A DNA stretch of 32,000 nt from Candidatus Methanophagaceae archaeon (GCA_003194425.1 PQXB01000001.1:400444-432443); one strand, 5' to 3'; counted from the stretch's first letter, positions 4,891-30,774 are shown. Made by a program: numbers and translations. The notes: generated by a model from the sequence alone, not told the origin.

Positions 4891-4930
4891 TATCTTGTGT
4901 TCTTATTTAAGTTGAGATTTCTTAAAATAA

Positions 4931-5429: not shown

Positions 5430-5467
5430 GAGGAAATTAACAGCGGGAAAAATAAGAAAATCCAAAA

Positions 5468-11350: not shown

Positions 11351-11440
11351 TTCTTCTTCTCCTTCTTCTTCTACCCCTTCGTTTTTTTATTTTTATTTTC
11401 TGATTTTTTTTGCAATAAAAGCAGTACAACAAAACAAAAA

Positions 11441-14525: not shown

Positions 14526-14558
14526 TTTTACTTCTTCTCTTCAGTCTACTCAGTCTGC

Positions 14559-16361: not shown

Positions 16362-16373
16362 TTTCTTTTCTCC

Positions 16374-16453
16374 CTTTTCTTTCTCAACACTTAACGCAGC
16401 AACAATTTACACACTTTTCTTTCTCAACACTTAACGCAGCAACAATTTACACA
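16374..16453. repeat. Perfect 40-nt tandem direct repeat in the divergent control region
   Basis: cttttctttctcaacacttaacgcagcaacaatttacaca occurs at 16374-16413 and again at 16414-16453. An AT-rich TATA-like run (atatttatattattataaag) follows immediately. Confidence 0.9.
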
Positions 16454-16662
16454 TATTTATATTATTATAAAGTTTATAAAGAATTTGAAAAGCATAAAAA
16501 AATGGCAGTGAGTGAGCAGCACACCGAACCAAGGCAGAGAAAATGCGAACTAAAAGAGATGTAAAATGGGGAAAGTAGGAAGAAATGGAGAAAGTAGGAA
16601 GACTTGGAAGACGCAGGCGACACAAGCGACGCAGCAAAATAAAATGCTTTTTAAAAAAAATT

Positions 16663-16670
16663 AGGAGGTG
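16663..16670 (+). promoter_or_regulatory. Shine-Dalgarno-like site for pilin gene 1
   Basis: aggaggtg lies 13 nt upstream of ATG 16684, preceded by an ttaaaaaaaa A/T run. Confidence 0.5.
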
Positions 16671-16683
16671 AAAACGAAAAAAA

Positions 16684-17280
16684 ATGAACACGAACAAAAA
16701 ATTCGATGGAAAAGAAGAGAACGGCAGAAGAAACAGTGGTAGTTGTAAAGAGAGCAGTAGAAGACTTAGAAAAGACGAGCGGGCAGTCTCGCCGGTTATT
16801 GGAATTATTCTGATGATCGCGATCACAGTCGTAATCGCGGCGGTCGTGGCTGCTTTCGCTTACGGTCTGATCGGCAACGTAGACACAGCACCAAGTGCGG
16901 CACTGGTCGTTGATGGCGCTCAGGAAGGGAAACCAGAGTTTACCGTGCTTCATCACGGCGGAGAAATAATAACTCAAGCGTTTAGAGAGAATGTCCAAGG
17001 CGACTCTTGCTGGGATGAAATGGAAGTAAAACTAAACGGGCGGACTTTGACTTTCACTGACGGCAGGGTTGACGAAATATTTTTGAACGGTACGCCTTCA
17101 GTAGAGTCCCCGGCGGGTACAGCAACGGGGTGGGGAACTACGGTGTTTGCACCAGGCGACGAAGTGAAAATTACCCTAGATAGCAGCACTACACCACCAT
17201 TAACACTCAAGTCGGGCGACACAATTGCTGTAGTTTTCGTACCATCGGGTGACATAATGCAGCGAGTGACGGTGCCGTAA
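16684..17280 (+). CDS. Archaeal type IV pilin (Pilin_N/DUF1628-type N-terminus), paralog 1
   Basis: DERAVSPVIGIILMIAITVVIAAVVAAFAYGLIG is the conserved archaeal pilin N-terminal domain. The C-terminus SGDTIAVVFVPSGDIMQRVTVP is shared with paralog 2. Confidence 0.85.
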   Translation: MNTNKKFDGKEENGRRNSGSCKESSRRLRKDERAVSPVIGIILMIAITVVIAAVVAAFAYGLIGNVDTAPSAALVVDGAQEGKPEFTVLHHGGEIITQAFRENVQGDSCWDEMEVKLNGRTLTFTDGRVDEIFLNGTPSVESPAGTATGWGTTVFAPGDEVKITLDSSTTPPLTLKSGDTIAVVFVPSGDIMQRVTVP

Positions 17281-17335
17281 GCCGTGCAATAAAAAGCCGT
17301 GTAGCAAAAGACCGTAAAAAGTTGTAAGGGAGAAG

Positions 17336-17395
17336 AGAAGAAGAGGTGCTTCTTCTGCACTGCTCCCTTTTTTTATTTTTTTTTTTTCTTTTTAA
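17336..17395 (+). terminator. Hairpin plus long oligo-T terminator after pilin 1
   Basis: agaagaag (17336-17343), loop aggtg, cttcttct (17349-17356), followed by ccctttttttattttttttttttcttttt. Confidence 0.55.
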
Positions 17396-17398
17396 GAA

Positions 17399-17926
17399 AT
17401 GAGAGACAAGCGATTTTTTGTTTTTGAAAAAGGGAAGGGCGGGAGAAAGAGAGAGAGTAAGAGAGCGGTCTCTCCTGTAATTGGAACTATTTTAATGATC
17501 GTGGTAGTGGTCGTAATCGCGGTGGTCGTGGCTACTTTTTCTTACGGCTTGATCGGCAGAGAAATCCAAACCCCGAGAGTGACTTTGCTCATTGAAGGCG
17601 TTAAAGCTGGCAGTAAAAATGTAACAGTGGTTCACTACGGCGGAGAACCGCTAACAGAAGCATTTAAGAAACCAGCCACTCAGAACGGCTCCTGCTGGGA
17701 TTCGGTTCTGGTAAAAATTAACGGTATGACTTTCGATGCAAAGCAGGGCACGGTCGCGTTAAACGGCACTTGGGACCCTGCCGAGTGGGGGACTACGCGT
17801 TTTGAACCTGCCGACGAACTGAAGCTTGCTCTCTCTGAAACTGAGAAGCTTAAATCCGGGGATTCAATCACAGTGGTTTTCATTCCAACAGGCGACGTCC
17901 TGCAGAGAGTGAAGGTGCAGGAGTGA
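17399..17926 (+). CDS. Archaeal type IV pilin (Pilin_N/DUF1628-type), paralog 2
   Basis: SKRAVSPVIGTILMIVVVVVIAVVVATFSYGLIG. Conserved core (VVHYGGEPLTEAF...SCWD...KINGMTF) and tail SGDSITVVFIPTGDVLQRVKVQE are parallel to paralog 1. Confidence 0.85.
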   Translation: MRDKRFFVFEKGKGGRKRESKRAVSPVIGTILMIVVVVVIAVVVATFSYGLIGREIQTPRVTLLIEGVKAGSKNVTVVHYGGEPLTEAFKKPATQNGSCWDSVLVKINGMTFDAKQGTVALNGTWDPAEWGTTRFEPADELKLALSETEKLKSGDSITVVFIPTGDVLQRVKVQE

Positions 17927-17948
17927 AGGTGCAGGAGTGAAGGTGCAG
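17907..17948 (+). repeat. 14-nt tandem repeat x3 spanning the pilin-2 stop codon
   Basis: gagtgaaggtgcag occurs at 17907-17920, 17921-17934 and 17935-17948. The stop TGA (17924-17926) lies in copy 2. Confidence 0.9.
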
Positions 17949-17949
17949 T

Positions 17950-18030
17950 AAGGAAAAGAAAAGGAAAAGAAAAGGAAAAGAAAAGGAAAAGAAAAGGAAA
18001 AGAAAAGGAAAAGAAAAGGAAAAAGGAAAG
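17950..18030 (+). repeat. 11-nt purine satellite (aaggaaaagaa), 6 perfect copies plus a partial
   Basis: Read directly. Units start at 17950, 17961, 17972, 17983, 17994 and 18005, with a degenerate seventh. Located upstream of ftsZ. Confidence 0.9.
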
Positions 18031-18049
18031 TTGAAATGAGCGGGAGCGA

Positions 18050-18103
18050 ACTTTTATTTACAGGTATAAATAGAGATAAAAGAGAGAAGAGGAGGAAGAG
18101 GAG
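18050..18103 (+). promoter_or_regulatory. Putative ftsZ promoter (TATA-like) and purine-rich leader
   Basis: cttttatttacaggtataaatag with tataaata at 18065-18072, ~32-39 nt upstream of ATG 18104. A ggagg lies at 18091-18095. Confidence 0.4.
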
Positions 18104-19291
18104 ATGGAGAGAATGTTAGGAAATAATGCAGGGATCGTAGAGGGCGAGGGGGATTGTTTCGGGGTGCCGAGCATTTCAATTGTCGGCGTAGGCGGGGCAG
18201 GAAACAATTCAATGGACAGACTGGAGCAGTTAGGCGGGCTGAACAACATAGACAGAATCGCCGTGAACACCGACAAACTGCACCTGGATTCGATAACCTG
18301 CAAGAAGAAAATCTTGATTGGAAAATCGCTTACACACGGATTAGGAGCAGGAGGCTCGCCGGAAATCGGCAGGAAAGCCGCGGAAATCGACAGGCAGGAG
18401 TTGGAGCAGTTGCTGGCGGGCAGGAACTTTGTCTTTCTCACTGCAGGGATGGGTGGAGGAACAGGTACGGGAGCGTCGCCGGTAGTCGCGAGTGTAGCGA
18501 AGGAGGCGGGTGCGATCGTGGTCGCGATGGTCTCTTTCCCGTTTGAAGCCGAGCGGATAAGACGACAAAGGGCAGCAGACGGGATTGAGGAACTCCGAAA
18601 CACCACCGACACGGTCATCGTCTTGGAGAACGACAAACTCCTGAAATACTCGGGCAACCTGCCGGTGAACGACGCCTTCAAGACGATGGATATGCTGATT
18701 ACAAGCACGATTCAGGGCATTGCCGAGACGGTAACAAAACCCTCGCTCGTGAACCTCGACTTTGCAGACCTCAAGGCGGTAATGTCCGAAGGTGGTGTCG
18801 CAGTGATGCTCATCGGCGAGACACGGAAATCAGAGAACAAGCCCGAGGCGGTCGTCTCCGACGCACTCAGCCACCCGCTTTTAGAAGCGGACTACCGCGG
18901 GGCGAAGGGCGCTCTTATTCACATCACCGGCGGGTCTGACCTCACGATGAAGGAGACGACGGACATCGTAGAACTGCTCACCTACGACCTGAACCCCGAC
19001 GCGAATGTAATTTGGGGCGCGCGGATAAACGATGACTACAACGGGCGGGCGCGGGTGACCGCGATAATGACCGGCGTAGAGCCGAAGTGGATTTTCGGCG
19101 GGCGGTACGAAGTCCGAGAAGAGAAAGAGCGAGAGACTACCAATCTATGGAAATTAAATACAAGTAGAGACAGAGGAATCGGCAGAGGAGGTAAAGGTAG
19201 CAAAGGAGGTAAAGGTAGCGGAGGAGGTAGCGGAGGAGGTAGCGGCGACGGAGAGGGAGGAATTAAAAATATTATTTCCTTCATCCACTGA
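18104..19291 (+). CDS. ftsZ: Cell division tubulin homolog FtsZ
   Basis: IVGVGGAGNNSMDRL, GLGAGGSPEIGRKAA, and the tubulin signature GMGGGTGTGASPVVA. Ends in a low-complexity G/K/S-rich C-terminal tail (GGKGSKGGKGSGGGSGGGSGDGEGG). Confidence 0.9.
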   Translation: MERMLGNNAGIVEGEGDCFGVPSISIVGVGGAGNNSMDRLEQLGGLNNIDRIAVNTDKLHLDSITCKKKILIGKSLTHGLGAGGSPEIGRKAAEIDRQELEQLLAGRNFVFLTAGMGGGTGTGASPVVASVAKEAGAIVVAMVSFPFEAERIRRQRAADGIEELRNTTDTVIVLENDKLLKYSGNLPVNDAFKTMDMLITSTIQGIAETVTKPSLVNLDFADLKAVMSEGGVAVMLIGETRKSENKPEAVVSDALSHPLLEADYRGAKGALIHITGGSDLTMKETTDIVELLTYDLNPDANVIWGARINDDYNGRARVTAIMTGVEPKWIFGGRYEVREEKERETTNLWKLNTSRDRGIGRGGKGSKGGKGSGGGSGGGSGDGEGGIKNIISFIH

Positions 19292-19350
19292 AAAACAAAG
19301 AGAGAAAAAAGTATAAACTTATTTAAATAAGTACAAGAATTATTGTCAGA

Positions 19351-20268
19351 ATGGCAAAGACAAACAAGGCAGCGGGTTTGTTGTATCGGGGCGAATTTAC
19401 CTACTACGTGGGTTCAGCGATTTTTTCGGCGGGCATCGCACTCTTGGCACTCGGCACTGCGTTTATCGTCTACTACAAAATACACTACGGCTCCGAGCCA
19501 GAGCAGATTCTGCTTTCTACCCTTTTTATGGGCGTCGGCACTACGCTGGTTTTGGTGGGCGTAAATTTGATGATGCGGCAGACACGGTTCGGGTATTTTA
19601 TCGTGGCTGCGAGCGCTTCTCTCTCCCTGCTTGCTCTCCTCATTTTTAAACTCAACTACCCGCAGGACTGGTACTACCCGCTAATAAGTTACGGGCTCAC
19701 TCTTTACATCTCGGGGTTTTTGGTGCTGCTCGGGAACGCGTTTGCGAATGTGATTCTGTGGCTGATTGAGAGCAGGCCTGCGGAAATGCTGAGTAGTGTC
19801 TTGGGCAGGCGGCGGGAGGAGAAGAAATACAGCAACGAAGAAATAGAGCGGGACATTGAAGAAGCGACGAGGAAGAGCGTTGAACTCTCCGCCACGAAAC
19901 TGCGGTTTAAGGACTTGGGGGCTGTGCAGAATGTGCGACTCGGAAAGGCGTTCCGCGAGTCGCGGGGCAAGACAGTTAGGTTCAAAGACAGCATAAAAGA
20001 AACCGAGAGCTTGGGAAAAATAAAGAGGCCCGTGGAGCGAGTGCGGTCTGGCTCGGCGGAGGTTGAGAATATTTCAAAGAGCCTGGAAGCGGTCTTGAAA
20101 GAAGGAGCAGTTCAGAAGGGACGGGGTAGAGGCAGCGGCAGGGGAGGTCTGGGTCAGAGAGGACTGGGTCAGGGAGGACGCTTTGAGGAGTTGAAGGATT
20201 TTATTAGTGGCGTTGTAGAGAAGTTTTGCTCTGTTCTTGGGCTGAAGAGGAAGGGCAAAAACATTTAA
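19351..20268 (+). CDS. Four-TM membrane protein with a long charged/disordered cytoplasmic tail
   Basis: Four hydrophobic helices (YVGSAIFSAGIALLALGTAFIVYY; LLSTLFMGVGTTLVLVGVNLMM; YFIVAASASLSLLALLIF; LISYGLTLYISGFLVLLGNAFANVILWLI). Then ~165 aa of K/E/R-rich sequence ending GRGRGSGRGGLGQRGLGQGGRFEELKDFISGVVEKF. A 14-nt perfect palindrome cttatttaaataag (19318-19331) sits ~20 nt upstream of the ATG. Confidence 0.6.
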   Translation: MAKTNKAAGLLYRGEFTYYVGSAIFSAGIALLALGTAFIVYYKIHYGSEPEQILLSTLFMGVGTTLVLVGVNLMMRQTRFGYFIVAASASLSLLALLIFKLNYPQDWYYPLISYGLTLYISGFLVLLGNAFANVILWLIESRPAEMLSSVLGRRREEKKYSNEEIERDIEEATRKSVELSATKLRFKDLGAVQNVRLGKAFRESRGKTVRFKDSIKETESLGKIKRPVERVRSGSAEVENISKSLEAVLKEGAVQKGRGRGSGRGGLGQRGLGQGGRFEELKDFISGVVEKFCSVLGLKRKGKNI

Positions 20269-20325
20269 TTTAATCAGAGAAAATAGAGTAAAGCAAAAAA
20301 AGGACGAAAAGAAGGAGAGAAAAAA

Positions 20326-21402
20326 ATGGCAAAAGGATTGGATGTTGGGACGATGAACATTATTTGTTCAGAGAGAGAAGACGAGGATGTGGTTTTTACG
20401 CAGCAGCGGAACGCGTTTCTGGAACTCGAGTCTGGGGACTTGACGAAGACGATGTTGGACAGTGCGAACGTGCTTTACATTGAGAAGGACGGTCAGATTT
20501 ATGTGCTGGGCGAGGACGCGTTTAGGTTCGCGACGATCTTCGGAAAAGGGGCACGACGGCCGATGAAACGCGGGATAATTAGCCCTGAAGAGAAGGACGC
20601 GATCCCGATGATTCAACTAATCGTGGAGCGGGTTCTGGGCGAGCCGAATTATCGCAATGAGGTGCTCTGCATTTCTTCGCCCGCCAATCCGATTGACTTG
20701 GACATAAACACGCTGTACCACAAGAAAATGATGGAGGCGCTGGCAGGGCGAATGCACTACGAGACGAGCGTGATTGACGAGGGCTTGGCTGTGGTTTATT
20801 CAGAACTCGGAAGCTCCAGCTTCACGGGTCTCGGAATAAGCATCGGCGCGGGGCTGACGAATGTGACGCTTGCCTATTTAGCCACGCCTGTGATGTCGTT
20901 CAGCATCGGCAGGGGCGGGGATTGGATTGACGAGCAGGTCTCGAGCACGACAGGACTCTCGAAGGAGCACGTCTGCGCGACGAAGGAAAGCGGGTTCAAG
21001 ATGGGCTTGGGCTCGGAGGTTGAGTTCGGCAGTCCCGAGGGGGCGCTCTCGATTTACTACGACGCTTTGATGACTTACCTGATAAAGAACTTGAACAGGA
21101 GGCTTGCGGAGATTACGCCGCCGAAGGTGGAGTTCCCGGTTGCACTCGCGGGTGGAAGTGCGACGCCAAACGGGTTCTTGAGAATGTTCGAGAAGAAGTT
21201 GCGAGACGCGAAACTTCAGATTGACATCTCAAATGTGAAGCGTGCCAAAGACCCCCTCTACTCGGTCGCACGGGGCTGCCTCATCGCCGCGAGGACGCAG
21301 GAAGGCGAAGATGTGAACAGTGGCGGTGGCGGTAGCGGGAGTGGTAGCGGGAGTGGTAGTGGTAGTGGTAGCGTGAAGACCACCGAGGAGAAAAAGGCAT
21401 GA
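20326..21402 (+). CDS. Actin-fold (ASKHA) ATPase, MreB/ParM/FtsA-like
   Basis: Phosphate-1 GLDVGTMNI. RRPMKRGIIS (compare MreB RPM[KR]DGVI). Phosphate-2 GLGISIGAGLTNV. SIGRGGDWIDE. Adenosine motif VALAGGSA. DPLYSVARGCLIAA near the C-terminus, then a (GS)n tail. Confidence 0.7.
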   Translation: MAKGLDVGTMNIICSEREDEDVVFTQQRNAFLELESGDLTKTMLDSANVLYIEKDGQIYVLGEDAFRFATIFGKGARRPMKRGIISPEEKDAIPMIQLIVERVLGEPNYRNEVLCISSPANPIDLDINTLYHKKMMEALAGRMHYETSVIDEGLAVVYSELGSSSFTGLGISIGAGLTNVTLAYLATPVMSFSIGRGGDWIDEQVSSTTGLSKEHVCATKESGFKMGLGSEVEFGSPEGALSIYYDALMTYLIKNLNRRLAEITPPKVEFPVALAGGSATPNGFLRMFEKKLRDAKLQIDISNVKRAKDPLYSVARGCLIAARTQEGEDVNSGGGGSGSGSGSGSGSGSVKTTEEKKA

Positions 21403-21532
21403 TAAGAAGGAAATAAAATGGAGACGGTAGGTAATTTTACCGGAAAGACTTGGGTCTAAGTTGCGGGCGAAAGCGGAAGCGACGGGCTACTTGTAAACTT
21501 TAAGAAAGTTTGATCAAAATGCTTCGGAAGAG

Positions 21533-21628
21533 TTGAGCGAGAAGTACCTTGCGGAAGGGAAGGAGCTGTTGAGTAAAGCGGACTTGGAGCAGGCGTCGGA
21601 GAAGTTCTGGGGCGCTGCGGCTTTAAAA
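21533..21628 (+). pseudogene. N-terminal fragment of a PaREP1/HEPN-like gene
   Basis: TTG-initiated SEKYLAEGKELLSKADLEQASEKFWGAAALKNL matches, from memory, the helix pair with the SEK.WGAAA motif of archaeal PaREP1-type proteins. The similarity stops at the A/T hairpin (21632-21650). The last 43 nt (21586-21628) recur at 23867-23909, as part of the 74-nt repeat. Confidence 0.35.
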
Positions 21629-21659
21629 AACCTTTCTTTAAAAAAGAAAGCTTTACCAA
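21586..21659 (+). repeat. 74-nt repeat, copy 1 (gene fragment + 8-bp/3-nt-loop hairpin)
   Basis: ggagcaggcgtcggagaagttctggggcgctgcggctttaaaaaacctttctttaaaaaagaaagctttaccaa is identical to 23867-23940. Hairpin: ctttcttt / aaa / aaagaaag at 21632-21650. Confidence 0.95.
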
Positions 21660-21785
21660 AGAAAAAGGAAGTGAATGTAGAAATGAAAAGAAGTAGAGGG
21701 GAAATAGTTGGGTCCGCCTTACTGGCGGCGTTTGCAGTGGTGGTGGTTAGTGCCGGAGTACAGCGTCTGCGTGCCGCTAACGGCA

Positions 21786-22073
21786 ATGCCTCTCTCGGTG
21801 CCAGCGGGGTACAAGGAGACGCTGGAGTACAGTTTCGCAGTGCCGGAATTGGGTGCGAAATGGTTCAGCAACGCGTTCCTCGTGCAGTTGGCGGAGACAG
21901 AGGCGGGCGGGGGAGAAGGAGCAGGTGGAGGAGGAGAGGTCTTGGATGCGGACGCTGCGTGCTGGATTTACCGTCCTGCGGGCAGGGGAGTAGAAGCGGC
22001 GCAGACGGCAGTAGGAGAAGCGGAAGTAGAAATCGCAGACGAGATAAGGAGAGCAGTAGAAGGGGTAAAGTAG
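21786..22073 (+). CDS. Small acidic protein, EYSFAVP family, copy A (95 aa from ATG 21786)
   Basis: MPLSVPAGYKETLEYSFAVPELGAKWFSNAFLVQLAETEAGGGEGAGGGGEVLDADAACWIYRPAG...EVEIADEIRRAVEGVK. The frame is supported by synonymous differences versus copy B. The stop TAG is followed by a hairpin and T-run. Confidence 0.6.
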   Translation: MPLSVPAGYKETLEYSFAVPELGAKWFSNAFLVQLAETEAGGGEGAGGGGEVLDADAACWIYRPAGRGVEAAQTAVGEAEVEIADEIRRAVEGVK

Positions 22074-22102
22074 AGTCTCTAAAAAGAGGCTCTCTTTTTT
22101 TT
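22073..22102 (+). terminator. Hairpin + T8 terminator-like element after copy A
   Basis: gagtctc (22073-22079), loop taaaaa, gaggctc (22086-22092; 7 bp with one G.U), then tctttttttt. Confidence 0.5.
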
Positions 22103-22119
22103 AGGAGAGGGAGAGAAGA

Positions 22120-22359
22120 ATGGCAATCGTAGAAGTGGATGAGGAATACAAAATACCATTAAAGCAGGTCAGCGTTAGCTTTAACATAAAACCTGCGGAT
22201 CGTTTTTTGGTACGAGTAGAGACGAGAGAGAAGATAGTTTTGGAGAAGATAAAGCAGAAAGATTCGCTTATAGAGATTATTGAAAATCCAGGACACACGG
22301 ATCGAAGAGGGGCAGCCCTCGATTTAAAAGAGCTTGAGGAAGAGCTGTGGGGGAGATGA
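22120..22359 (+). CDS. vapB: AbrB/SpoVT(MazE)-type antitoxin, VapB-like
   Basis: 79 aa. MAIVEVDEEYKIPLKQVSVSFNIKPADRFLVRVETREKIVLEKI fits the swapped-hairpin AbrB pattern. The stop overlaps the downstream PIN gene start (ATGA at 22356-22359). Confidence 0.7.
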   Translation: MAIVEVDEEYKIPLKQVSVSFNIKPADRFLVRVETREKIVLEKIKQKDSLIEIIENPGHTDRRGAALDLKELEEELWGR

Positions 22360-22772
22360 AAGTTTTTGTAGATTCCAATATCTTTATATTCGCGAATATC
22401 GCGGAATATCCAGAGCAGGAGACTGCAAAGGAGAAATTGAAGTGGCTGATAAATAAATCCTGCACGATTTTAGTCAATCCGATTATCGTTTCCGAAGTGC
22501 ATTACAAACTTTCCAGACTATTAAGTGCGGAAGAGGCGTACGAACGAACATTGAAAATAATTTCTTCGGGACACGTTGAGTACGTGCCGTTGGGGAAAGG
22601 GACGGTGCTAAAAGCGATTGAGCTCAGTCGTTCAAGGAAAATCAGGATAAACGATGCTCTGATCGCTCAACACGCGTTGGACTTGAATGCAGAGGGTTTG
22701 GTAACCGATAACACGAAAGATTTCGTTAAAGTGGAAGGATTGAAGGTTATCAAATTGAGAGAGGACGAATAA
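22356..22772 (+). CDS. vapC: PIN-domain toxin VapC
   Basis: MKVFVDSNIFIF (Asp-1), IIVSEVHY (Glu), INDALIAQHAL (Asp), LVTDNTKDF (Asp). ATG 22356 is preferred over track GTG 22347 because of the ATGA coupling. Confidence 0.85.
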   Translation: MKVFVDSNIFIFANIAEYPEQETAKEKLKWLINKSCTILVNPIIVSEVHYKLSRLLSAEEAYERTLKIISSGHVEYVPLGKGTVLKAIELSRSRKIRINDALIAQHALDLNAEGLVTDNTKDFVKVEGLKVIKLREDE

Positions 22773-22799
22773 GCTCGTAAATGGGGAACAGAAGACCGG

Positions 22800-23123
22800 T
22801 TGGCGTTGCAGTGGTGGTGGTTAGTGCCGGAGTACAGCTTTGCGGTGCCGGATTTGGGTGCGAAGTGGTTCAGCAACGCGTTCCTCGTGCAGTTGGCGGA
22901 GACAGAGGCGGGCGGGGGAGAAGGAGCAGGTGGAGGAGAGGTCTTGGATGCGGACGCTGCGTGCTGGATTTACCGTCCTGCGGGCAGGGAAGCGGGAGCG
23001 GTGCCAGTAGCAGTAGGAGAAGTGGAAGTAGAAATCGCAGACGAGATAAAAGAGGCGATTGAAAAGTGGAGTAGGGCTTCTGAAAAGAGGCTCTCTTCTT
23101 TTTTATTTTTTCCTAAAGCATAA
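22800..23123 (+). CDS. Small acidic protein, EYSFAVP family, copy B (start uncertain: TTG 22800 or GTG 22824)
   Basis: ...VPEYSFAVPDLGAKWFSNAFLVQLAETEAGGGEGAGGGEVLDADAACWIYRPAG...EVEIADEIKEAIEKW. Near-identical at DNA level to copy A apart from a 69-nt and a 3-nt in-frame indel. The stop differs, so the ORF reads through a degenerate terminator copy. Confidence 0.55.
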   Translation: MALQWWWLVPEYSFAVPDLGAKWFSNAFLVQLAETEAGGGEGAGGGEVLDADAACWIYRPAGREAGAVPVAVGEVEVEIADEIKEAIEKWSRASEKRLSSFLFFPKA

Positions 23124-23487
23124 CACTTTCAGAGAAACTTTTAAAATGAGGGTCTCCTGTTAGAACCTTCACGCCTTTAAATCGTGCAGAGGCAAGCACG
23201 AACGCATCTGCGAGACCAAAGTCTTGCATCGTCTTCTTCGCCTCGGCGTGAATTTTCGCAGCCTCTACTGCAATCTGCTCGTCAATCGGAATGACTGCAC
23301 ACCGCTTCACGATGAAGTTCCTCCTCTCTTCTGCCCTTCCGTCGGTTCTTAAAGATTTGGAGAATATTTCTGCGATGATGATTGGAGAAGTGTAAAGTTG
23401 CACCTCGGTTTCAACGACCTCTTTCACCCTCTTCCCCTCCTCCGTGCCCATAAAATATTCTATCCAGGCGAACGAATCAAGCAGCAT
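23113..23487 (-). CDS. vapC: PIN-domain toxin VapC (second module)
   Basis: MLLDSFAWIEYFMGT (Asp-4), IIIAEIFSK (Glu), LADAFVLASA (Asp), LTGDPHFKSF (Asp). Confidence 0.85.
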   Translation of the reverse strand: MLLDSFAWIEYFMGTEEGKRVKEVVETEVQLYTSPIIIAEIFSKSLRTDGRAEERRNFIVKRCAVIPIDEQIAVEAAKIHAEAKKTMQDFGLADAFVLASARFKGVKVLTGDPHFKSFSESVML

Positions 23488-23497
23488 TTACTTTATT

Positions 23498-23710
23498 CTA
23501 TCCTATCCTATCCTCACGGTCTCTCAAGTCTGACTTCTCTGTCCTCGCCATCGTCCCAAAAAGACTTTTCTTCGCTTTAACTTTGAAAAGAGCATCATAT
23601 AAGATTTCGTTTATCTTTTCTGACACCCCTTCTTCGCCCGACTCTTTTTTTAACGCCAGATATATTTCTTCCCTCAATTTAATCGCCTTTCGAACATACA
23701 TCGTTTTCAC
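23498..23710 (-). CDS. vapB: Small antitoxin (RHH/CopG-like VapB) paired with the second PIN toxin
   Basis: 70 aa, ending 10 nt upstream of the PIN gene. KAIKLREEIYLALKKESGEEGVSEKINEILYDAL fits strand-helix-helix antitoxins that accompany archaeal VapC. Confidence 0.6.
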   Translation of the reverse strand: MKTMYVRKAIKLREEIYLALKKESGEEGVSEKINEILYDALFKVKAKKSLFGTMARTEKSDLRDREDRIG

Positions 23711-23740
23711 CTATTCTTTTTACTTGGACATTAATAAAAG

Positions 23741-23974
23741 TTGGCGATTCTTAAAAATTACGACGAGCCTATCGAGTACAGTTTCGCAGTGCCGGATTTG
23801 GGTGCGACGTGGTTCAGCAACGCGTTCTTCGTGCAGTTGGTGGATACAGAGGAAGGAGCGGGAGGAGGAGCAGGCGTCGGAGAAGTTCTGGGGCGCTGCG
23901 GCTTTAAAAAACCTTTCTTTAAAAAAGAAAGCTTTACCAACAACTTTTTTACCTTCGGTAAAAACCTTGACTAA
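23741..23974 (+). pseudogene. EYSFAVP family copy C, truncated and fused to the 74-nt repeat
   Basis: Only 23774-23866 (EYSFAVPDLGATWFSNAFFVQLVDTEEGAGGG) is homologous to copies A and B. At the shared ggagcagg microhomology it switches into repeat copy 2 (23867-23940). The N-terminal 11 codons overlap the vapB2 promoter region. Confidence 0.6.
23867..23940 (+). repeat. 74-nt repeat, copy 2
   Basis: Identical to 21586-21659. Followed by a 78-nt copy-specific insert (23941-24018) that carries a TATA-like ctttatatag. Confidence 0.95.
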
Positions 23975-24043
23975 ACTTTACTGAAGAAAAATAATACTTT
24001 ATATAGAGTTATAGAGTGAAAGAAAAAGGAAGTAAAAGTAGAA

Positions 24044-24193
24044 ATGAAAAGAAGTAGAGGGGAAATATTTGGGTCCGCCCTTGTGGCGGCGTTTGTAGTG
24101 GTGGTAGCGGTGTTTCCGACTGCGGTCTCGGTCTCGGTGACCGCAGCAGAGAGAGGAGCAGAGGGGAGAGGGAGAGAAGAAAGGCAATCGTAG
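24044..24193 (+). CDS. Hydrophobic micro-ORF (49 aa), intact twin of the leader at 21683
   Basis: MKRSRGEIFGSALVAAFVVVVAVFPTAVSVSVTAAERGAEGRGREERQS. TATA-like tttatata lies ~40 nt upstream. 24019-24108 is roughly 90% identical to 21658-21747 by eye (about seven mismatches in ~90 nt). It is below the 60-aa track cutoff. Confidence 0.4.
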   Translation: MKRSRGEIFGSALVAAFVVVVAVFPTAVSVSVTAAERGAEGRGREERQS

Positions 24194-24235
24194 AAGTGGA
24201 TGAGGAATACCATTTTGTAGATTCTGAAGTCTTTT
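24165..24235 (+). pseudogene. Decayed vapB'-vapC' remnant
   Basis: 24165-24210 matches 22104-22149 (the vapB1 5' end) with ATG mutated to AAG. After a 7-nt slip deletion it jumps to ttttgtagattc, which matches the vapC1 5' end (22363-22374), and then diverges. Confidence 0.7.
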
Positions 24236-24260
24236 ATTATTTTACCAACACATCCCTAGA

Positions 24261-25415
24261 ATGACGATCGAAGAGGAGATAAAAAACACCGAGGACGAAA
24301 TCCGAAAGACACCCTACAACAAGGCGACCTCACACCACATCGGACGGCTAAAAGCCAAACTCGCACGACTACGCGACGAACTCCAAAAACGCGCAACCGC
24401 CGCAACCGCCGCCTCAAAATCCGAAAGCAGAGGCTACGCGGTAAAAAAATCAGGGGACGCAACCGTCGTGCTCGTCGGGTTTCCCTCGGTCGGCAAGTCA
24501 ACGCTGCTCAACCGCCTCACCGGCACCAGCGCTGAGGTCGCTGCTTACGACTTCACTACCCTCGAAGTAATTCCCGGCACGCTCCTCTACAAAGGTGCGC
24601 GAATTCAATTCCTCGACCTCCCAGGGCTCGTCCGCGGCGCTGCAACAGGGCGAGGGCGTGGCAGAGAGGTGATTTCAGTGCTGCGGAACGCAGACCTAAT
24701 TCTCTTCGTCCTCGACCCCTTCCAGCCGCAGCAGCAGTACGAGACGCTAGCGAAAGAGTTGCACGACGCGGGCGTCCGAGTCAACGCCAAACCGCCTGCA
24801 GTCAGAATTCGGAGAACGAGCAGAGGCGGAATCGCAGTGAACAGCACCGTCCCTCTCGCCCTCAACCCTGATGACACCGAGACAGCTGACTCCGAGACTG
24901 GCGGAATTGACGAAGAAACAATCCGTGCAGTGCTGTCAGAATACAAAATACTCAACGCCGAAGTCCTGATTCGAGAACGCGTCTCCCTCGACCGACTCAT
25001 TGACGCAGTTCTCGGCAACCGCAGCTACATCCCCGCACTCACCGCCGTCAACAAGGTGGATTTGGCGAGTTCTGAGTTTGGGGGGTTTGGATTTGAGTTT
25101 AAAGACGCAATTCCAATCTCGGCGGCGCTCGGCACGAACATTGAGGCACTGAAAGCCCGGATTTACGACAAATTAGGGTTCATTCGCACCTTTATGAAGC
25201 CGCAGGGAGCACCGCCGGATTTGGAGAACCCGCTGGTCGTGAGGCGGAATTCTACGGTCGCGGACGTCTGTTCTGCGATTCATCGCGACTTCGTTGCGCG
25301 GTTCCGCTACGCCCGCGTCTGGGGAAAATCAGTGAAGTTCGGGGGACAGCGTGTTGGTCTCTCGCACTTGCTCGCTGACGGCGATGTGGTGAGCATTGCG
25401 ATGCAACGGAGATAA
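24261..25415 (+). CDS. DRG-family (Obg-like) GTPase with C-terminal TGS domain
   Basis: N-terminal TPYNKATSHHIGRLKAKLARLR. G1 GFPSVGKST, G3 DLPG, G4 NKVD. TGS-like tail (VADVCSAIHRDFVARFRYARVWGKSVKFGGQRVGLSHLLADGDVVSI). Confidence 0.9.
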   Translation: MTIEEEIKNTEDEIRKTPYNKATSHHIGRLKAKLARLRDELQKRATAATAASKSESRGYAVKKSGDATVVLVGFPSVGKSTLLNRLTGTSAEVAAYDFTTLEVIPGTLLYKGARIQFLDLPGLVRGAATGRGRGREVISVLRNADLILFVLDPFQPQQQYETLAKELHDAGVRVNAKPPAVRIRRTSRGGIAVNSTVPLALNPDDTETADSETGGIDEETIRAVLSEYKILNAEVLIRERVSLDRLIDAVLGNRSYIPALTAVNKVDLASSEFGGFGFEFKDAIPISAALGTNIEALKARIYDKLGFIRTFMKPQGAPPDLENPLVVRRNSTVADVCSAIHRDFVARFRYARVWGKSVKFGGQRVGLSHLLADGDVVSIAMQRR

Positions 25416-26517
25416 AACCTCTCTCTTTTCCGAAAACTCTTTTTCTAAAAGAAAGTGCAACAGCTCTTCGTTCTCCTCGTCCCGCCGCACCGAGAACCTA
25501 ATGTGCGACGGCAGACCAAACGAAGCACAGTCCCGCACCAAAATCCCACACCTCAAAAGCCGACGCTTCACTTCTCTCGCACTCGCATTTCCAACATCAA
25601 AAGCATAAAAATTCGCGTCCGTCTGAATTGAGCCCGCAAACGCCTCCTCAATTCTTTTTTTGCTCCGCTCTATTTTTCTCCGCGTCTGGTTTAAAAATTC
25701 CTCGCCCGCCGACCCGACCACTGCCTGTCCCACTCTCTGTGCAAAGACACTCACACTCCACGGCGCCTGCGCCTTCCTCATCATTTTTATGTTCTCTGCA
25801 GACGAAATCGCGTAGCCCAGCCGCAGACCAGGAACCGCGAACGACTTCGTGAGCGACCGCAGAACAACCAAATTCCCTGTCTGCGTCGGCGTCGGTCTTT
25901 GTGAAAACGCTTTCTCTACAAAATCCCGGTACGCCTCGTCAAGCACCAGCAACGCGTCCACCCGCTCCGCCTCTTCTAACACCTGCCGCACCTCGTCTTC
26001 GCTGAGGTACTGCCCGGTCGGGTTGTTAGGGTTGCAGAGAAAGACCACATCCCCGTTCTTCATTTTTTCCACCACCTGCTCGGGCTTGACTTGCAGCCCT
26101 GGCATTTCTACACGCTCTATTTTTACTCCTGCACCCCCTTCCTTCCCAACCAACCTCGCAGCGACCTCGTACTCGCCGTAAGTGTGCCTCGGCAGCACTG
26201 CCCGTTTTTTGACAAAAGAAAGTGCGACAAGCCGAATTAGTTCTGAAGCCCCCGCGCCCACCAAAATCTCCTCCTCCCGACACCCCTCTCTTCCCGAAAT
26301 CCTCGCTCGCAACGCGCAGCAGTCGGAGTCAGGGTACTCGCTTATTTCGGCTGCCGCCTCCCGCACTGCGTCAAAGACAAAATCTGGCGGTCCGTAAGGG
26401 TTTAAATTTACACTGAAGTCAATTATTTTTCTACTCTTGTCTCTTCGCCTACTACCCCCGTCTCTTCCCCCACCACACCCGTCTCTTCGCCCGCCGCCGT
26501 GCTCGCAAATTTCAATT

Positions 26518-26546
<29 letters not shown>
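25329..26546 (-). CDS. Class I/II PLP aminotransferase-fold enzyme, CobD (threonine-phosphate decarboxylase)/HisC-like
   Basis: EHGGG....IIDFSVNLNPYGPP (CobD-like N-terminus), FLCNPNNPTG, SLTKSFAVPGLRLGY (PLP lysine). Has a G/R-rich insertion near the N-terminus. The 3' tail overlaps the DRG gene convergently by 87 nt. Confidence 0.65.
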
Positions 26547-28071
<1,525 letters not shown>

Positions 28072-28079
28072 TTAATCAG

Positions 28080-28153
28080 CGAGCCGGGAGGGATTTGAAC
28101 CCCCGACGGGCAGGTTAAGAGCCTGCTGCTCTGCCTTTCTGAGCTACCGGCCC
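28080..28153 (-). tRNA. tRNA-Lys (anticodon CUU), 74 nt, no encoded CCA, no intron
   Basis: Reverse complement folds by hand: GGGCCGG/TA/GCTC-AGAAAGGCA-GAGC/A/GCAGG-CTCTTAA-CCTGC/CCGTC/GGGGG-TTCAAAT-CCCTC/CCGGCTC/G. All stems pair, with two G.U pairs. Confidence 0.9.
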
Positions 28154-28215
28154 ACGCTTCAATTTTTGTTAGGCACGATGTTATTTAAACTTTAATTAAA
28201 AAAGCAAAAACCAAA
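28154..28215. promoter_or_regulatory. AT-rich divergent promoter region (tRNA-Lys / tgtA)
   Basis: tatttaaa at 28182-28189 (tttaaata on the - strand) lies ~30 nt upstream of the tRNA 5' end. tttaattaaaaaa lies ~15-25 nt upstream of ATG 28216. Confidence 0.4.
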
Positions 28216-29790
28216 ATGGCAGAGGCACACGCAGACGCAGAGTTTAAGTTTGAGGTTCTGCACAAGGATTTGATGGGGCGGGTGGGTCGGCTGCGAACGC
28301 CGCGGGGGGCAGTGGTGGAGACGCCGACGCTAATGCCGGTGCTAAACCCTGGCCTCGCCTCAGTCGGCGCAGGTGCAATCGGTGCAGAGGAAATGCGGAA
28401 GCACGGCGCCGAGATGCTCATCACGAACGCCTACCTAATTTACAGGAAGCCTGATTTACGAGAGGAGGCGGTTAAGAAGGGCGTTCACTCGCTCTTGGGC
28501 TTGGGCTTGGACCTGGGCAGTGGCTGTGAGACGCCGGTGATGACCGACTCCGGGTCTTACCAACTCTACGAGTACTCCGATGTAGAGGTGAGCAACAGGG
28601 AGATTTTGGATTTTCAGCGCCGCATCGGCTCGGACGTCTGCGTGCCTTTGGACATTCCGACTGCACCGTTCCCGCACGCAAAAAGGGAGCAAGCGAGAGC
28701 AGACTTGGAGGAGACACTGAGGCGGCTCCGAGAGGCGAGGGAGACTATTTGGGGCGGCGACAAAATGCTTGCAGGGGTCGTGCAGGGCTCGAGTTTTTTG
28801 GACTTGCGGGCAGAGAGTGCGAGGCGTGCTGCAGAGATTGGGTTTGACCTGTACGCGATTGGGGGCGTGGTGCCGCTGCTGGCGTCCTACAGGTTTGAGG
28901 AGTTGGTGGACGTGGTCGTGGCGGCGAAACGGGAACTGCCGTTGAACGCTCCTGTTCACCTCTTCGGGGCTGGGCACCCGATGATTTTTCCGCTCGCAGT
29001 CGCTCTCGGCTGCGACCTCTTTGACTCTGCAGCTTACGCACTCTACGCGAAGGCAGGGCGGTACTTGACGAGCGAGGGGACGAGGAGAGTGGCGGATTTG
29101 CGGTTCCTGCCCTGCTCCTGCCCTGTCTGCTCTTCGCACAGCGTTGGCGAGGTGCGGGAGAGCGCGGAGTTGCTGGCGTCGCACAACTTGTGTGTCTCTT
29201 TCGCGGAGATGCGAACCGTGAAGCAGAGCGTTGCCGAAGGGCGGTTGTGGGAACTCTGCGAACGGCGGTGCAGGGCACACCCGGCTCTGCTGAGCGGTCT
29301 GCGGCGGCTTGCGAAATATTCGGCGCTGCTTGAGAGGTTCGACCCTGCAACGAAACTTCACCCTTTCTTTTACCTCGGCGAGACCTCTGCACACCGACCT
29401 GAAGTGCTGCGGTACTCGGAACGGCTGGAGCGGTTCAAGCTCTCGGGTAGGGTGCTGGTAAGCACGAACCCTTTTTCTAAAGAAAAATGTTTTACCGAAA
29501 AAGAGGAGGAGAAGTTTGAGAGCGTATTTTTTGTGAAGCCGCCGTTTGGACCCTGCCCGGTCGAGTTGGCAGAGACTTACCCGGTGGGGCAGGCAGAGGT
29601 GCCGGCAGCGGCAGAAGCAGACAGCGAAGCCAAGACGGTGGCGCTGCGAAATGTGCTGAAGTTGCTGGAAATGAACGCGGGGAAGGCGAAGTTCGTTTTT
29701 GTTTACGACCGCAGTTGGGCGTGTGAGTACCGGTGCCAGCCGTTGATTGAGGAGATTGGGAAGTACGCGGAGGTGAAAATGAAAAAATGA
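28216..29790 (+). CDS. tgtA: Archaeosine tRNA-guanine transglycosylase (ArcTGT)
   Basis: FEVLHKDLMGRVGRLRTPRGAVVETPTLMPVLNP. LYAIGGVVPL. Zn site CSCPVCSSH...H. 524 aa, with no recognisable C-terminal PUA-like segment. Confidence 0.85.
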   Translation: MAEAHADAEFKFEVLHKDLMGRVGRLRTPRGAVVETPTLMPVLNPGLASVGAGAIGAEEMRKHGAEMLITNAYLIYRKPDLREEAVKKGVHSLLGLGLDLGSGCETPVMTDSGSYQLYEYSDVEVSNREILDFQRRIGSDVCVPLDIPTAPFPHAKREQARADLEETLRRLREARETIWGGDKMLAGVVQGSSFLDLRAESARRAAEIGFDLYAIGGVVPLLASYRFEELVDVVVAAKRELPLNAPVHLFGAGHPMIFPLAVALGCDLFDSAAYALYAKAGRYLTSEGTRRVADLRFLPCSCPVCSSHSVGEVRESAELLASHNLCVSFAEMRTVKQSVAEGRLWELCERRCRAHPALLSGLRRLAKYSALLERFDPATKLHPFFYLGETSAHRPEVLRYSERLERFKLSGRVLVSTNPFSKEKCFTEKEEEKFESVFFVKPPFGPCPVELAETYPVGQAEVPAAAEADSEAKTVALRNVLKLLEMNAGKAKFVFVYDRSWACEYRCQPLIEEIGKYAEVKMKK

Positions 29791-29835
29791 AATTCGCCAA
29801 AATAAAACAACCTAAAGGAAGGAACTTTTTTTTAC

Positions 29836-30732: not shown

Positions 30733-30774
30733 TTTTTTCTCTCTGACCTCAATTCACTTCCCCCTAACTTAAAC

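What the first reader, a model, noticed from the sequence alone, without database searches (positions are those of the whole stretch)
21533..24240. 2.7-kb recombination mosaic: a duplicated and rearranged cassette array around two vapBC modules
Between the actin-like gene and the DRG GTPase the sequence is a patchwork of re-used blocks. Order: [PaREP1-like fragment + hairpin] - [hydrophobic leader] - [acidic ORF A] - terminator - vapB1 - vapC1 - [25 nt of leader + acidic ORF B] - (vapC2, vapB2 on the opposite strand) - [acidic ORF C fragment fused to PaREP1 fragment + hairpin] - 78-nt insert with TATA - [intact hydrophobic micro-ORF] - [vapB1'/vapC1' remnant]. Blocks 21586-22149 and 23867-24210 share both ends (74 nt identical, ~90 nt with about seven mismatches, ~46 nt near-identical) but differ in the middle. 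Junctions sit at short microhomologies (ggagcagg; ggagtacag; atac). I saw no integrase, transposase or terminal inverted repeats. It looks like a cassette-shuffling hotspot, possibly a defence/TA islet, whose mechanism is unexplained by a known element.
Basis: seen in the sequence. Interest (0 to 1): 0.8.

Follow-up and report, generated by a model that had tools for sequence, protein, structure and literature searches.

The report
Strain-variable toxin-antitoxin islet of gene debris
The "mosaic" is real, but it is debris from three ordinary neighbouring genes (a PaREP1/HEPN gene, a DUF2341 surface-protein gene and vapBC toxin-antitoxin pairs), duplicated, deleted and reshuffled by ordinary recombination between repeats; only the two toxin-antitoxin pairs are still intact.

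Summary
The blocks, however, are not cassettes of an unknown element.

- **"Hydrophobic leader":** this is the signal peptide of a DUF2341 secreted protein gene.
- **"Acidic ORFs" A, B and C:** these are three copies of that gene's 3' end. Copy A is the gene itself with a 1.1-kb internal out-of-frame deletion.
- **74-nt repeat:** this is a PaREP1 (HEPN-T) gene with an internal deletion. Its hairpin is the genuine PaREP1 3' end.
- **"78-nt insert":** this is the ancestral PaREP1 tail plus the TATA promoter of the DUF2341 gene.

Independent metagenome assemblies with 97-100% identical flanks, some traceable to Guaymas Basin, show at least eight structural alleles between the same volactin and DRG genes. 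They carry no TA pair, vapBC1 only, vapBC2 only, both (the window), or vapBC1 twice. One allele is exactly the predicted 2281-nt deletion between the 74-nt repeats.

Joints sit at short purine-rich microhomologies, and the repeat copies are mosaics of each other. There is no integrase, transposase or attC-like site.

Best explanation: homologous recombination between direct repeats, plus microhomology-mediated deletion, in a small TA/surface-protein islet. It is a genuine hotspot that runs on a known mechanism, so interest is modest.

The parts
20326..21402 (+). Volactin gene, the conserved left flank of the islet.
   Evidence: Pfam Volactin E 1.6e-123. The identical protein is on 9 other contigs.
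21461..21659 (+). PaREP1 (HEPN-T) pseudogene. The N-terminal ~55 codons are joined by an internal deletion of about 240 nt to the gene's own 3' end (LKNLSLKKKALP, the AT-rich hairpin).
   Evidence: Pfam PaREP1 positions 6-43 of 115. tblastn to the intact L004 PaREP1, residues 1-55, 87%. PaREP1 copies that extend beyond the 74-nt form, with the same 3' end, are in L101 and L102; intact copies are in L004 and L107.
21586..21659 (+). R74 copy 1, the 74-nt perfect direct repeat. It lies inside the PaREP1 pseudogene.
   Evidence: Its fold is not unusual (z -0.9).
21660..21744 (+). Leader L1: ribosome-binding region, ATG at 21683 and the signal peptide of the DUF2341 gene. The 78-nt PaREP1 tail and TATA promoter are deleted here.
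   Evidence: Colinear with the leaders of full-length genes in L012, L095 and L004.
21727..21747 (+). Joint J1, a 1100-nt internal deletion of the DUF2341 body. It formed at the near-homology GGCGTT(T)G(C/T)AGTGGTGGT and puts the 3' end out of frame.
   Evidence: The alignments to L012 14-175 and 1255-3482 overlap here. The sequences are shown and the reading frames. The same joint is in the independent contig L100.
21748..22102 (+). Copy A: the 3' end of the DUF2341 gene (stop 22071-22073) plus a terminator hairpin and T-run.
   Evidence: 95.6% aa identity to residues 354-464 of the L012 DUF2341 protein. Hairpin fold.
22120..22359 (+). vapB1 antitoxin, intact.
   Evidence: 79 aa, weak MazE/AbrB match (E 0.027). 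100% conserved in all alleles.
22347..22772 (+). vapC1 PIN toxin, intact. The ATG is at 22359.
   Evidence: Pfam PIN E 6.9e-16. 98.5-100% aa identity across alleles.
22787..23103 (+). Copy B: a promoterless 3' fragment of the DUF2341 gene. It starts abruptly at joint J2 (AACAGAAGACCGG = ...NPTEDR), lacks 69 nt between the GGAGTACAG repeats, has lost its stop codon, and keeps the terminator hairpin.
   Evidence: A B-type 3' end closes full-length genes in L101, L107 and L104.
23113..23487 (-). vapC2 PIN toxin, intact.
   Evidence: Pfam PIN E 6.2e-16 and NCBIfam VapC 1.4e-8. All identical copies lie at this same locus.
23498..23710 (-). vapB2 antitoxin, intact.
   Evidence: Weak VAPB_antitox match (E 0.012). 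98.6-100% aa identity across alleles.
23774..23874 (+). Copy C: a 112-nt piece of the DUF2341 3' region that begins at GAGTACAG. It is fused at GGAGCAGG (joint J6) to PaREP1 sequence.
   Evidence: The same joint continues into a much longer PaREP1 sequence (lacking the ~240-nt internal deletion, but frameshifted) in L101, and into PaREP1-like sequence in L104 and L106.
23867..23940 (+). R74 copy 2.
   Evidence: 100% identical to 21586-21659.
23941..24018 (+). The 78-nt segment: the natural 3' tail and stop of PaREP1, plus the TATA box (TTTATATA at 23998) of the DUF2341 gene. It is ancestral, not an insert.
   Evidence: Present in L102, L106, L107 and L094. TATA position.
24019..24164 (+). Leader L2: a signal-peptide remnant forming the 49-aa micro-ORF 24044-24193. 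It is truncated at GGAGCAG (joint J9) onto the vapB1 upstream sequence.
24165..24240 (+). vapB1'/vapC1' remnant: ATG mutated to AAG, the first 10 codons of vapB1, then about 22 nt of the vapC1 start. It is present in every allele next to DRG.
24261..25415 (+). DRG/Obg-family GTPase gene, the conserved right flank.

Best explanation
The 2.7-kb stretch is a small strain-variable islet in otherwise conserved chromosome of an uncultured archaeon. By its closest volactin homologues the organism is related to Methanosarcinales, Methanophagales and Syntrophoarchaeum.

**What it is made of.** The islet was built from tandem copies of one unit: a PaREP1 (HEPN-T) gene, a signal-peptide DUF2341 surface-protein gene, and a vapBC pair.

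**How it changes.**
- Deletions at short microhomologies destroyed the PaREP1 and surface-protein genes. These microhomologies are mostly purine-rich (GGAGCAG(G), GGAGTACAG, GCTGCG, and a 19-nt near-homology between the leader and the gene body).
- What remains is a set of direct repeats: three copies of the gene's 3' end (A, B, C), two PaREP1 stubs (R74) and two leaders.
- General homologous recombination between these repeats then adds or removes the segments between them. It can act within a chromosome, between co-existing strains, or through excised circles that re-integrate by a single crossover.
- As a result the vapBC pairs behave like cassettes without any dedicated recombinase.

**State in the window.** Only vapB1C1 and vapC2B2 are intact. 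Everything else between volactin and DRG is pseudogene debris.

**Shown:** the identity of every block, the joints, the population alleles, and the mosaic repeat copies.

**Inferred:** the order of events, the recombination pathway (unequal crossover versus circle re-integration), and whether selection retains the TA pairs by addiction or favours loss of the surface protein under virus pressure.
For: 1. **Block identity.**
- Full-length genes lie at the same place in other strains. L012 and L095 carry leader + DUF2341 (464 aa called; Pfam DUF2341 E 4e-29), whose last ~117 codons are copy A.
- L107 has an intact PaREP1 (E 8e-22) + a 518-aa DUF2341 protein with a B-type end + vapC2B2 + C::R74 + the 78 nt + L2 + remnant + DRG.
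- L101 and L102 show that the R74 hairpin is the natural PaREP1 3' end.

2. **Structural alleles with 97-100% identical flanks.**
- No TA pair: L001, L099 and L094. L094 equals the window minus exactly the 2281 nt between the R74 copies.
- vapBC1 only: L113.
- vapBC2 only: L101, L104, L106 and L107.
- Both pairs: the window, L011, L012, L013, L096 and L103.
- vapBC1 twice, as a 1005-nt tandem unit: L010.
- vapBC1 followed by a new PaREP1-DUF2341 unit: L102.

3. **Independent support for the window's junctions.** Contigs from different samples and assemblies tile 21620-24376: L100 covers 21620-22951, L096 covers 21995-23940 and L107 covers 22826-24376.

4. **Exchange between repeat copies.** An alignment of 27 A/B/C copies shows hybrids of A-type and B-type segments, and a PaREP1 patch inside a B copy in L103. 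The leader in L001 is a hybrid of L1 and L2.

5. **No dedicated machinery.**
- No integrase or transposase among the window ORFs.
- Only one weak 16-nt inverted repeat.
- No Rfam family reaches its gathering score; the best hits have E 0.3-0.9.
- The hairpins are ordinary terminators.

6. **The hotspot is local.** The flanks 18070-21585 and 24019-31887 are colinear at 98-99.7% with only small indels.
Against: - No single outside contig carries the window's complete arrangement, and reads could not be mapped. The exact order in this particular assembly is therefore unverified.
- The history (which allele is ancestral, circle versus unequal crossover) is not resolved.
- The same PaREP1 internal deletion is present in both R74 copies, which requires transfer between copies.
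- Co-existing strains in metagenomes could produce chimeric contigs wherever identical stretches exceed the k-mer length.
- Recurrent use of GGAGCAG at three independent joints could hint at a sequence preference. However, that word is common on coding strands across the window (26 observed versus 6 expected).
Confidence: 0.8

Rival explanations
1. The window's arrangement is an assembly chimera. Co-existing strain haplotypes (a short form plus long forms) would have been threaded in series through the shared 74-nt and leader repeats.
For: - Many assemblies break immediately after volactin (L002, L003, L005-L009).
- The short S2 form (L094) and a window-type left half (L100) come from the same sample, 3300025163.
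- No single outside contig spans the whole window arrangement.
Against: - Every junction recurs in independent contigs from different samples and assemblies (contig names in k141_, NODE_ and JGI formats).
- Microhomology joints of 10 nt or less cannot be created by k-mer assembly.
- L095 links volactin-PaREP1N-R74-leader-DUF2341, and L011/L012 link TA1-B-TA2-C-R74-L-DRG. Long arrays are therefore chromosomal.
- Assemblers collapse repeats rather than expand them.
Confidence: 0.07
2. The locus is an integron-like or otherwise site-specific cassette system. An unrecognised recombinase would move [gene + hairpin] cassettes.
For: - Hairpins follow several blocks.
- Cassette number varies between strains.
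- TA pairs are typical residents of chromosomal integron arrays (general knowledge).
Against: - No tyrosine or serine recombinase or transposase is found in the 32 kb.
- The hairpins are a gene's own 3' end and ordinary terminators. They are not shared between boundaries, and the R74 fold has z -0.9.
- The joints use different microhomologies.
- The 'cassettes' are truncated, out-of-frame pieces of neighbouring genes.
- vapC2B2 is in the opposite orientation.
- All identical VapC2 copies sit at this one locus.
Confidence: 0.03
3. The locus performs programmed surface variation. The promoterless 3' copies B and C would be silent donor cassettes that convert the C-terminus of the expressed DUF2341 adhesin-like protein, as in pilE/pilS-type antigenic variation.
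For: - Partial promoterless 3' copies lie next to an expression locus.
- The 3' ends are mosaics of A-type and B-type sequence.
- DUF2341 proteins are proposed pilus-tip adhesins in archaea (PMC4858521), and a type IV pilus-like locus lies upstream.
- In L103 and L104 the N-terminal body is swapped for a beta-propeller.
Against: - There are only two or three donor copies, and they are nearly identical over their first 170 nt. The differences are confined to the last ~35 codons.
- The 'expression' gene is itself broken in many alleles: a frameshift in L012 and L095, a 1.1-kb deletion in the window and L100, and complete absence in the S1 and S2 alleles.
- Copy B has lost its stop codon and 69 nt.
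Confidence: 0.07

Closest known systems
Strain-variable chromosomal vapBC loci of archaea (for example Sulfolobus islandicus; PMC3718332)
   Same: Type II vapBC pairs sit in strain-specific stretches. They are gained and lost between close relatives and are accompanied by HEPN-family genes and gene remnants.
   Different: In S. islandicus nearly all vapBC loci are flanked by degenerate IS copies thought to move them. Here no IS remnant is present. The flanking repeats are fragments of the neighbouring surface-protein and PaREP1 genes.
Tandem duplication and deletion by unequal homologous recombination, and Campbell-type single-crossover integration
   Same: Units are bounded by direct repeats. 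Copy number is 0, 1 or 2, and one allele has a 1005-nt unit in perfect tandem (L010). One allele is the exact deletion between repeats (L094). Each inserted segment is flanked by a full and a truncated copy of the same homology.
   Different: The repeats are short (74-283 nt) and partly diverged (86-100%). The founding joints were made by microhomology-mediated illegitimate recombination. The process has been seen only as population polymorphism, not experimentally.
Chromosomal integron (superintegron) cassette arrays carrying TA modules
   Same: A compact array in which TA pairs alternate with short ORFs and hairpins, and whose content differs between strains.
   Different: There is no IntI, attI or attC. 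The cassettes are not discrete ORF + site units, orientation is mixed, and the organism is an archaeon.
PaREP1/PaREP8 (HEPN-T) repetitive gene family of Thermoproteales (PMC3710099, PMC2701414)
   Same: Same Pfam family. Members are often found in tandem repeats and in conflict-system neighbourhoods.
   Different: The window copies are internally deleted stubs, in an archaeon whose closest relatives found here are Methanosarcinales/Methanophagales MAGs rather than Thermoproteales. Here they serve only as recombination homology.

Membership tests
Type II toxin-antitoxin, VapBC | Toxin is a PIN-domain protein of about 125-140 aa. | tested here: met
   Pfam PIN E 6.9e-16 (22359-22772) and 6.2e-16 (23113-23487, minus strand), both above the gathering score. 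NCBIfam VapC matches fall below the curated cut-offs.
Type II toxin-antitoxin, VapBC | A small antitoxin gene lies immediately upstream of the toxin in the same operon. | tested here: met
   vapB1 (22120-22359) abuts or overlaps vapC1. vapB2 (23498-23710, minus strand) ends 10 nt before vapC2.
Type II toxin-antitoxin, VapBC | The antitoxin has a recognisable DNA-binding fold (AbrB/MazE, RHH and similar). | tested here: inconclusive
   MazE_antitoxin E 0.027 for VapB1 and VAPB_antitox E 0.012 for VapB2. Both are below the gathering scores.
Type II toxin-antitoxin, VapBC | Toxicity that is neutralised by the cognate antitoxin. | not testable with these tools
   Requires expression experiments.
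Integron cassette array | An adjacent IntI tyrosine recombinase with attI. | tested here: not met
   No recombinase family among the window ORFs or in the gene tables of syntenic contigs.
Integron cassette array | An attC imperfect inverted repeat at the 3' end of every cassette. | tested here: not met
   Only one weak 16-nt inverted repeat in the region. The hairpins are the PaREP1 3' end and two terminators, and are unrelated to each other.
IS element, MITE or transposon | Terminal inverted repeats, a target-site duplication and a transposase. | tested here: not met
   The blocks are absent elsewhere in the window, and all outside copies lie at the same locus.
PaREP1/PaREP8 (HEPN-T) | A full PF05942 domain of about 115 residues. 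| tested here: not met
   The window copy covers profile positions 6-43 only. The intact alleles L004 and L107 cover 4-115. The window copies are pseudogene stubs of a family member.
DUF2341 secreted protein | A PF10102 domain behind a signal peptide. | tested here: not met
   In the window the domain itself is deleted and only the leader and 3' end remain. Membership of the ancestral gene is shown by DNA colinearity with L012, L095 and L107, which carry PF10102 (E 4e-29).
Silent-cassette antigenic variation (pilE/pilS type) | An intact expression locus plus multiple promoterless partial donor copies that differ in the exposed variable segment. | tested here: inconclusive
   Partial copies and mosaics exist. 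However, the expression gene is broken in the window and in several other alleles, and there are only two donors.

The most novel reading that the evidence does not exclude
The directly repeated 3'-end fragments of the surface-protein gene and the PaREP1 stubs may act as portable homology arms. The vapBC pairs would then be recombinase-independent cassettes: popped out as 1.0-kb or 2.3-kb circles by recombination between repeats, passed between co-existing strains, and re-inserted by a single crossover. The toxin-antitoxin pairs would favour their own retention while the host genes around them decay. This would be a distinct, homology-driven mode of TA mobility in archaea.
Probability: 0.2. 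Interest if true: 0.5.

Novelty: new member of a known kind. Interest (0 to 1): 0.3.

Why it matters
This is a clean, population-resolved example of how a tiny chromosomal hotspot evolves in an uncultured archaeon from (at least partly) Guaymas Basin sediment metagenomes. More than a dozen independent rearrangements fall within less than 4 kb, while the sequence compared on either side (about 3.5 kb upstream and 8 kb downstream) stays colinear. The only survivors are two toxin-antitoxin pairs.

The locus shows that 'cassette-like' gain and loss of TA modules can arise from general recombination between gene debris, with no integrase or IS element. It also gives a caution for annotation: the ORFs called here ('acidic' proteins of 77-121 aa, a 49-aa membrane micro-ORF, and 102-aa and 199-aa chimeras) are fragments, not genes.

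The locus does not reveal a new kind of genetic element.

Tried and rejected
1. **Acidic ORF as a new small protein family or a diverged PaREP1 paralogue.** Only 14 near-identical database hits were found. The idea was rejected once DNA colinearity with full-length DUF2341 genes was seen.
2. **Integron, IS or MITE.** No recombinase, attC or terminal inverted repeats. No significant Rfam hit.
3. **R74 hairpin as a functional site.** It is the PaREP1 3' end and its fold is not unusual.
4. **GGAGCAG as a Chi-like hotspot motif.** The word is about four times over-represented throughout the window on coding strands (26 versus 6 expected), so its reuse as microhomology needs no special explanation.
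5. **Synteny in more distant relatives.** Only the CdpA-volactin pair could be traced in the closest species-representative genomes (80-85% aa volactin); no DRG match appeared in the sequence fetched downstream of volactin (1-8 kb). They are uninformative for this islet.
6. **vapC2B2 as a mobile module elsewhere.** All exact copies lie at this locus.
7. **Naming the organism or study from accession numbers.** Two literature searches were run. Only Ga0180301 could be tied to a site, a Guaymas Basin sediment assembly.
8. **Paralogues of the surface-protein C-terminal domain elsewhere in the window.** None found.

Full report
**1. Observation**

| Repeat | Length and identity | Source |
|---|---|---|
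| 21586-21659 = 23867-23940 | 74 nt, 100%, spacing 2281 | |
| 21658-21744 ~ 24019-24105 | 87 nt, 92% | |
| 22104-22149 ~ 24165-24210 | 46 nt, 98% | |
| 21821-22102 ~ 22826-23103 | 283 nt, 87%, E 4e-94 | |
| 23774-23885 ~ both of the above | 112-113 nt, 86-87% | |

None of the blocks occurs elsewhere in the 32-kb window.

Two PIN toxins with upstream antitoxins are present, at 22120-22772 (+) and 23113-23710 (-). The segment 21533-21680 matches the N-terminal third of Pfam PaREP1. The flanks are a volactin gene and a DRG-type GTPase gene.

**2. What the blocks are**

I looked up contigs that encode the identical volactin protein, and the few database homologues of the 'acidic ORF'. This returned many independent metagenome contigs whose flanks are 97-100% identical to the window but whose content between volactin and DRG differs.

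- **Leader and acidic ORFs.** In L012 and L095 the leader opens a 464-aa (as called) DUF2341 protein gene (Pfam PF10102, E 4e-29). Its last ~117 codons and terminator are the window's 'acidic ORF A'. L107 has an intact 518-aa version. The 'hydrophobic leader' is therefore this gene's signal peptide, and A, B and C are three copies of its 3' end.
- **Copy A in the window.** Relative to L012, 1100 nt of gene body are missing between leader and 3' end. The joint lies in a 19-nt near-homology: GGCGTTTGTAGTGGTGGT in the leader and GGCGTTGCAGTGGTGGT in the body. The two parts are out of frame. The independent contig L100 carries the same joint.
- **The 74-nt repeat.** It is not a PaREP1 fragment plus a foreign hairpin. 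L101 and L102 carry longer PaREP1 copies whose natural 3' end reads ...IEQLIARLKNLSLKKKALP, which is the hairpin sequence. R74 is therefore PaREP1 with an internal deletion of about 240 nt.
- **The '78-nt insert'.** It is the natural PaREP1 tail and stop codon plus the TATA box (23998) of the DUF2341 gene. It is present in L094, L102, L106 and L107. Copy 1 has lost it.
- **PaREP1 family.** It belongs to the HEPN-T clade of conflict-system proteins (PMC3710099). DUF2341 proteins have been proposed as type IV pilus tip adhesins in archaea (PMC4858521). A TadC/pilin-like locus lies upstream in the window.

**3. Population alleles**

All alleles lie between the same two genes.

| Allele | Content between volactin and DRG | Contigs |
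|---|---|---|
| S1 | PaREP1N-R74-leader-vapB'C' remnant | L001 (46.7-kb contig), L099 |
| S2 | As S1, plus the 78 nt | L094 |
| H2 | PaREP1-leader-surface protein (B-type end)-vapC2B2-C::PaREP1-leader-remnant | L107, L101, L106, L104 |
| H1 | DUF2341 (A-type end)-vapB1C1-Bstart::R74-leader, no vapC2B2 | L113 |
| Long | Both TA pairs | window, L011, L012, L013, L096, L103 |
| Duplicated | A 1005-nt unit [3' end + vapB1C1] repeated in tandem | L010 |
| L102 | vapB1C1-Bfragment::PaREP1 pseudogene-promoter-leader-DUF2341 | L102 |
| L004 | A divergent intact PaREP1 allele followed by an in-frame leader-DUF2341 gene | L004 |

- S2 is exactly the window minus the 2281 nt between the R74 copies.
- In L104 the N-terminal body of the surface protein is a beta-propeller instead of DUF2341.
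- The L102 joint is a different one, at GCTGCG.
- Contigs from different samples and assemblies tile the window's own arrangement from 21620 to 24376: L100, L096 and L107.
- By contrast, the flanks 18070-21585 and 24019-31887 are colinear at 98-99.7% with only small indels.

**4. Mechanism**

- The joints sit at short, mostly purine-rich microhomologies:
  - GGAGCAG(G) at C::PaREP1, at the leader-2 truncation, and at the L010 joint;
  - GGAGTACAG at the 69-nt deletion in B and at the start of C;
  - GCTGCG in L102 and L103;
  - ATAC/TT in the vapB'C' remnant.
- GGAGCAG is a common coding-strand word throughout the window (26 observed, 6 expected). Its reuse therefore needs no special site.
- An alignment of 27 A/B/C copies shows that A and B differ mainly in the last ~110 nt. 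Several copies are A/B hybrids, and one B copy carries a PaREP1 patch. The L001 leader is an L1/L2 hybrid. These patterns are signatures of homologous exchange between the repeats.
- The Long allele has the topology expected if an H2 chromosome recombined out of register with an H1 haplotype. Equivalently, a circle [3' fragment + vapB1C1] could have integrated by a single crossover. Either route gives a full 3' end, then the TA pair, then a second copy that starts abruptly at the J2 border and continues into the natural downstream sequence.
- Recombination A x B, B x C or R74 x R74 would regenerate H2, H1 and S2 respectively.
- These steps are inferred from allele structures. They have not been observed directly.

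**5. No dedicated machinery**

- No integrase, transposase or other recombinase was found among the window ORFs scanned here or in the gene tables of syntenic contigs.
- No terminal inverted repeats were found.
- No Rfam family reaches its gathering score; the best hits have E 0.3-0.9.
- The hairpins are ordinary terminators or the PaREP1 3' end.
- All identical VapC2 copies lie at this locus.

**6. State of the genes in the window**

- VapB1, VapC1, VapB2 and VapC2 are intact and 98.5-100% conserved across alleles.
- PaREP1 is a stub in both copies.
- The DUF2341 gene is internally deleted and frameshifted.
- Copy B lacks a start codon, 69 nt and its stop codon. Copy C is a 112-nt piece.
- The 49-aa micro-ORF is a signal-peptide remnant fused to a dead vapB start.
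- The ORFs that gene callers report here (77-121 aa 'acidic' proteins and 102-aa and 199-aa chimeras) are artefacts of this debris.

**7. Comparison and verdict**

The closest known situation is the strain-variable vapBC loci of Sulfolobus islandicus. Those are flanked by degenerate IS copies (PMC3718332). Here the flanking repeats are fragments of host genes.

The locus resembles an integron array only superficially and fails every defining feature. A pilS-like donor-cassette reading cannot be fully excluded. It is unlikely, because the expressed gene is itself broken in many alleles.

The assembly-chimera rival cannot be excluded for the exact order in this one contig without reads. Every junction is nonetheless independently supported.

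Some of the matching contigs come from Guaymas Basin sediment metagenomes: Ga0180301 is so identified in PMC6478937, and the DOMB18-1 contig names are a weaker hint. By volactin similarity, 80-85% aa identity to Methanosarcinales, Methanophagales, Syntrophoarchaeum and Argoarchaeum MAGs, the organism is an uncultured relative of those groups.

Overall this is a genuine and nicely resolved recombination hotspot and TA islet, explained by known processes. Interest is modest.

Noticed in passing
window 12348-18070; compare L002, L003 and L097: A second strain-variable stretch lies just upstream. Contigs with identical volactin and CdpA match the window only from 18070 onward. Before that point they carry different, or only ~66% identical, surface and pilin-type genes (FG-GAP, Pilin_N, DUF7289), next to a TadC/T2SSF gene at 11255-12322.
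   Followed up: partly
L104 4365-5585 (minus strand); L103 116-1361: In these strains the surface protein at the same position has a Tachylectin/DUF4394-like beta-propeller body instead of DUF2341. It keeps the same C-terminal ~145 residues and the same vapC2B2 neighbour, so the domains have been swapped at the locus. In L103 the gene is split by a frameshift.
   Followed up: partly
L094, about 100 nt after the leader ATG at oriented position 2572 (equivalent to window 24122-24140): A 19-nt segment of the signal-peptide region (GGTCTCGGTCTCGGCGACC) is exactly inverted in this allele. It is flanked by the short inverted repeat GCGGTC/GACCGC.
   Followed up: no
L012 ~195-210 and the same site in L095; window 24124-24137: The short tandem repeat GTCTCG in the signal-peptide region varies between alleles: one unit in L004, two in the window's L2, two plus extra bases in L102. 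In L012 and L095 one base is missing, which separates the signal peptide from the DUF2341 body by a frameshift.
   Followed up: partly
L101 2640-2699: The end of this public contig contains Nextera adapter sequence (CTGTCTCTTATACACATCT...). Its last ~60 nt are a library artefact, not genome sequence.
   Followed up: no
window 21325-21374 (volactin 3' end): The volactin C-terminal tail is a 12-nt-period Gly-Ser repeat. Its length differs between strains: 358 aa in the window against 350 aa in L104, and a shorter tail in L103.
   Followed up: no
whole window: The heptamer GGAGCAG occurs 26 times against about 6 expected from shuffles. It appears to lie on the coding strand of the local gene (judged by eye from the ORF table). 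This looks like a codon or composition bias of the genome rather than a signal.
   Followed up: partly
window 1405-6490: The upstream core genes look like the alternative (siroheme-dependent) haem pathway: two radical-SAM/SPASM proteins, a NirDL-like siroheme decarboxylase fusion and ALAD. This confirms that the islet sits in housekeeping chromosome.
   Followed up: no
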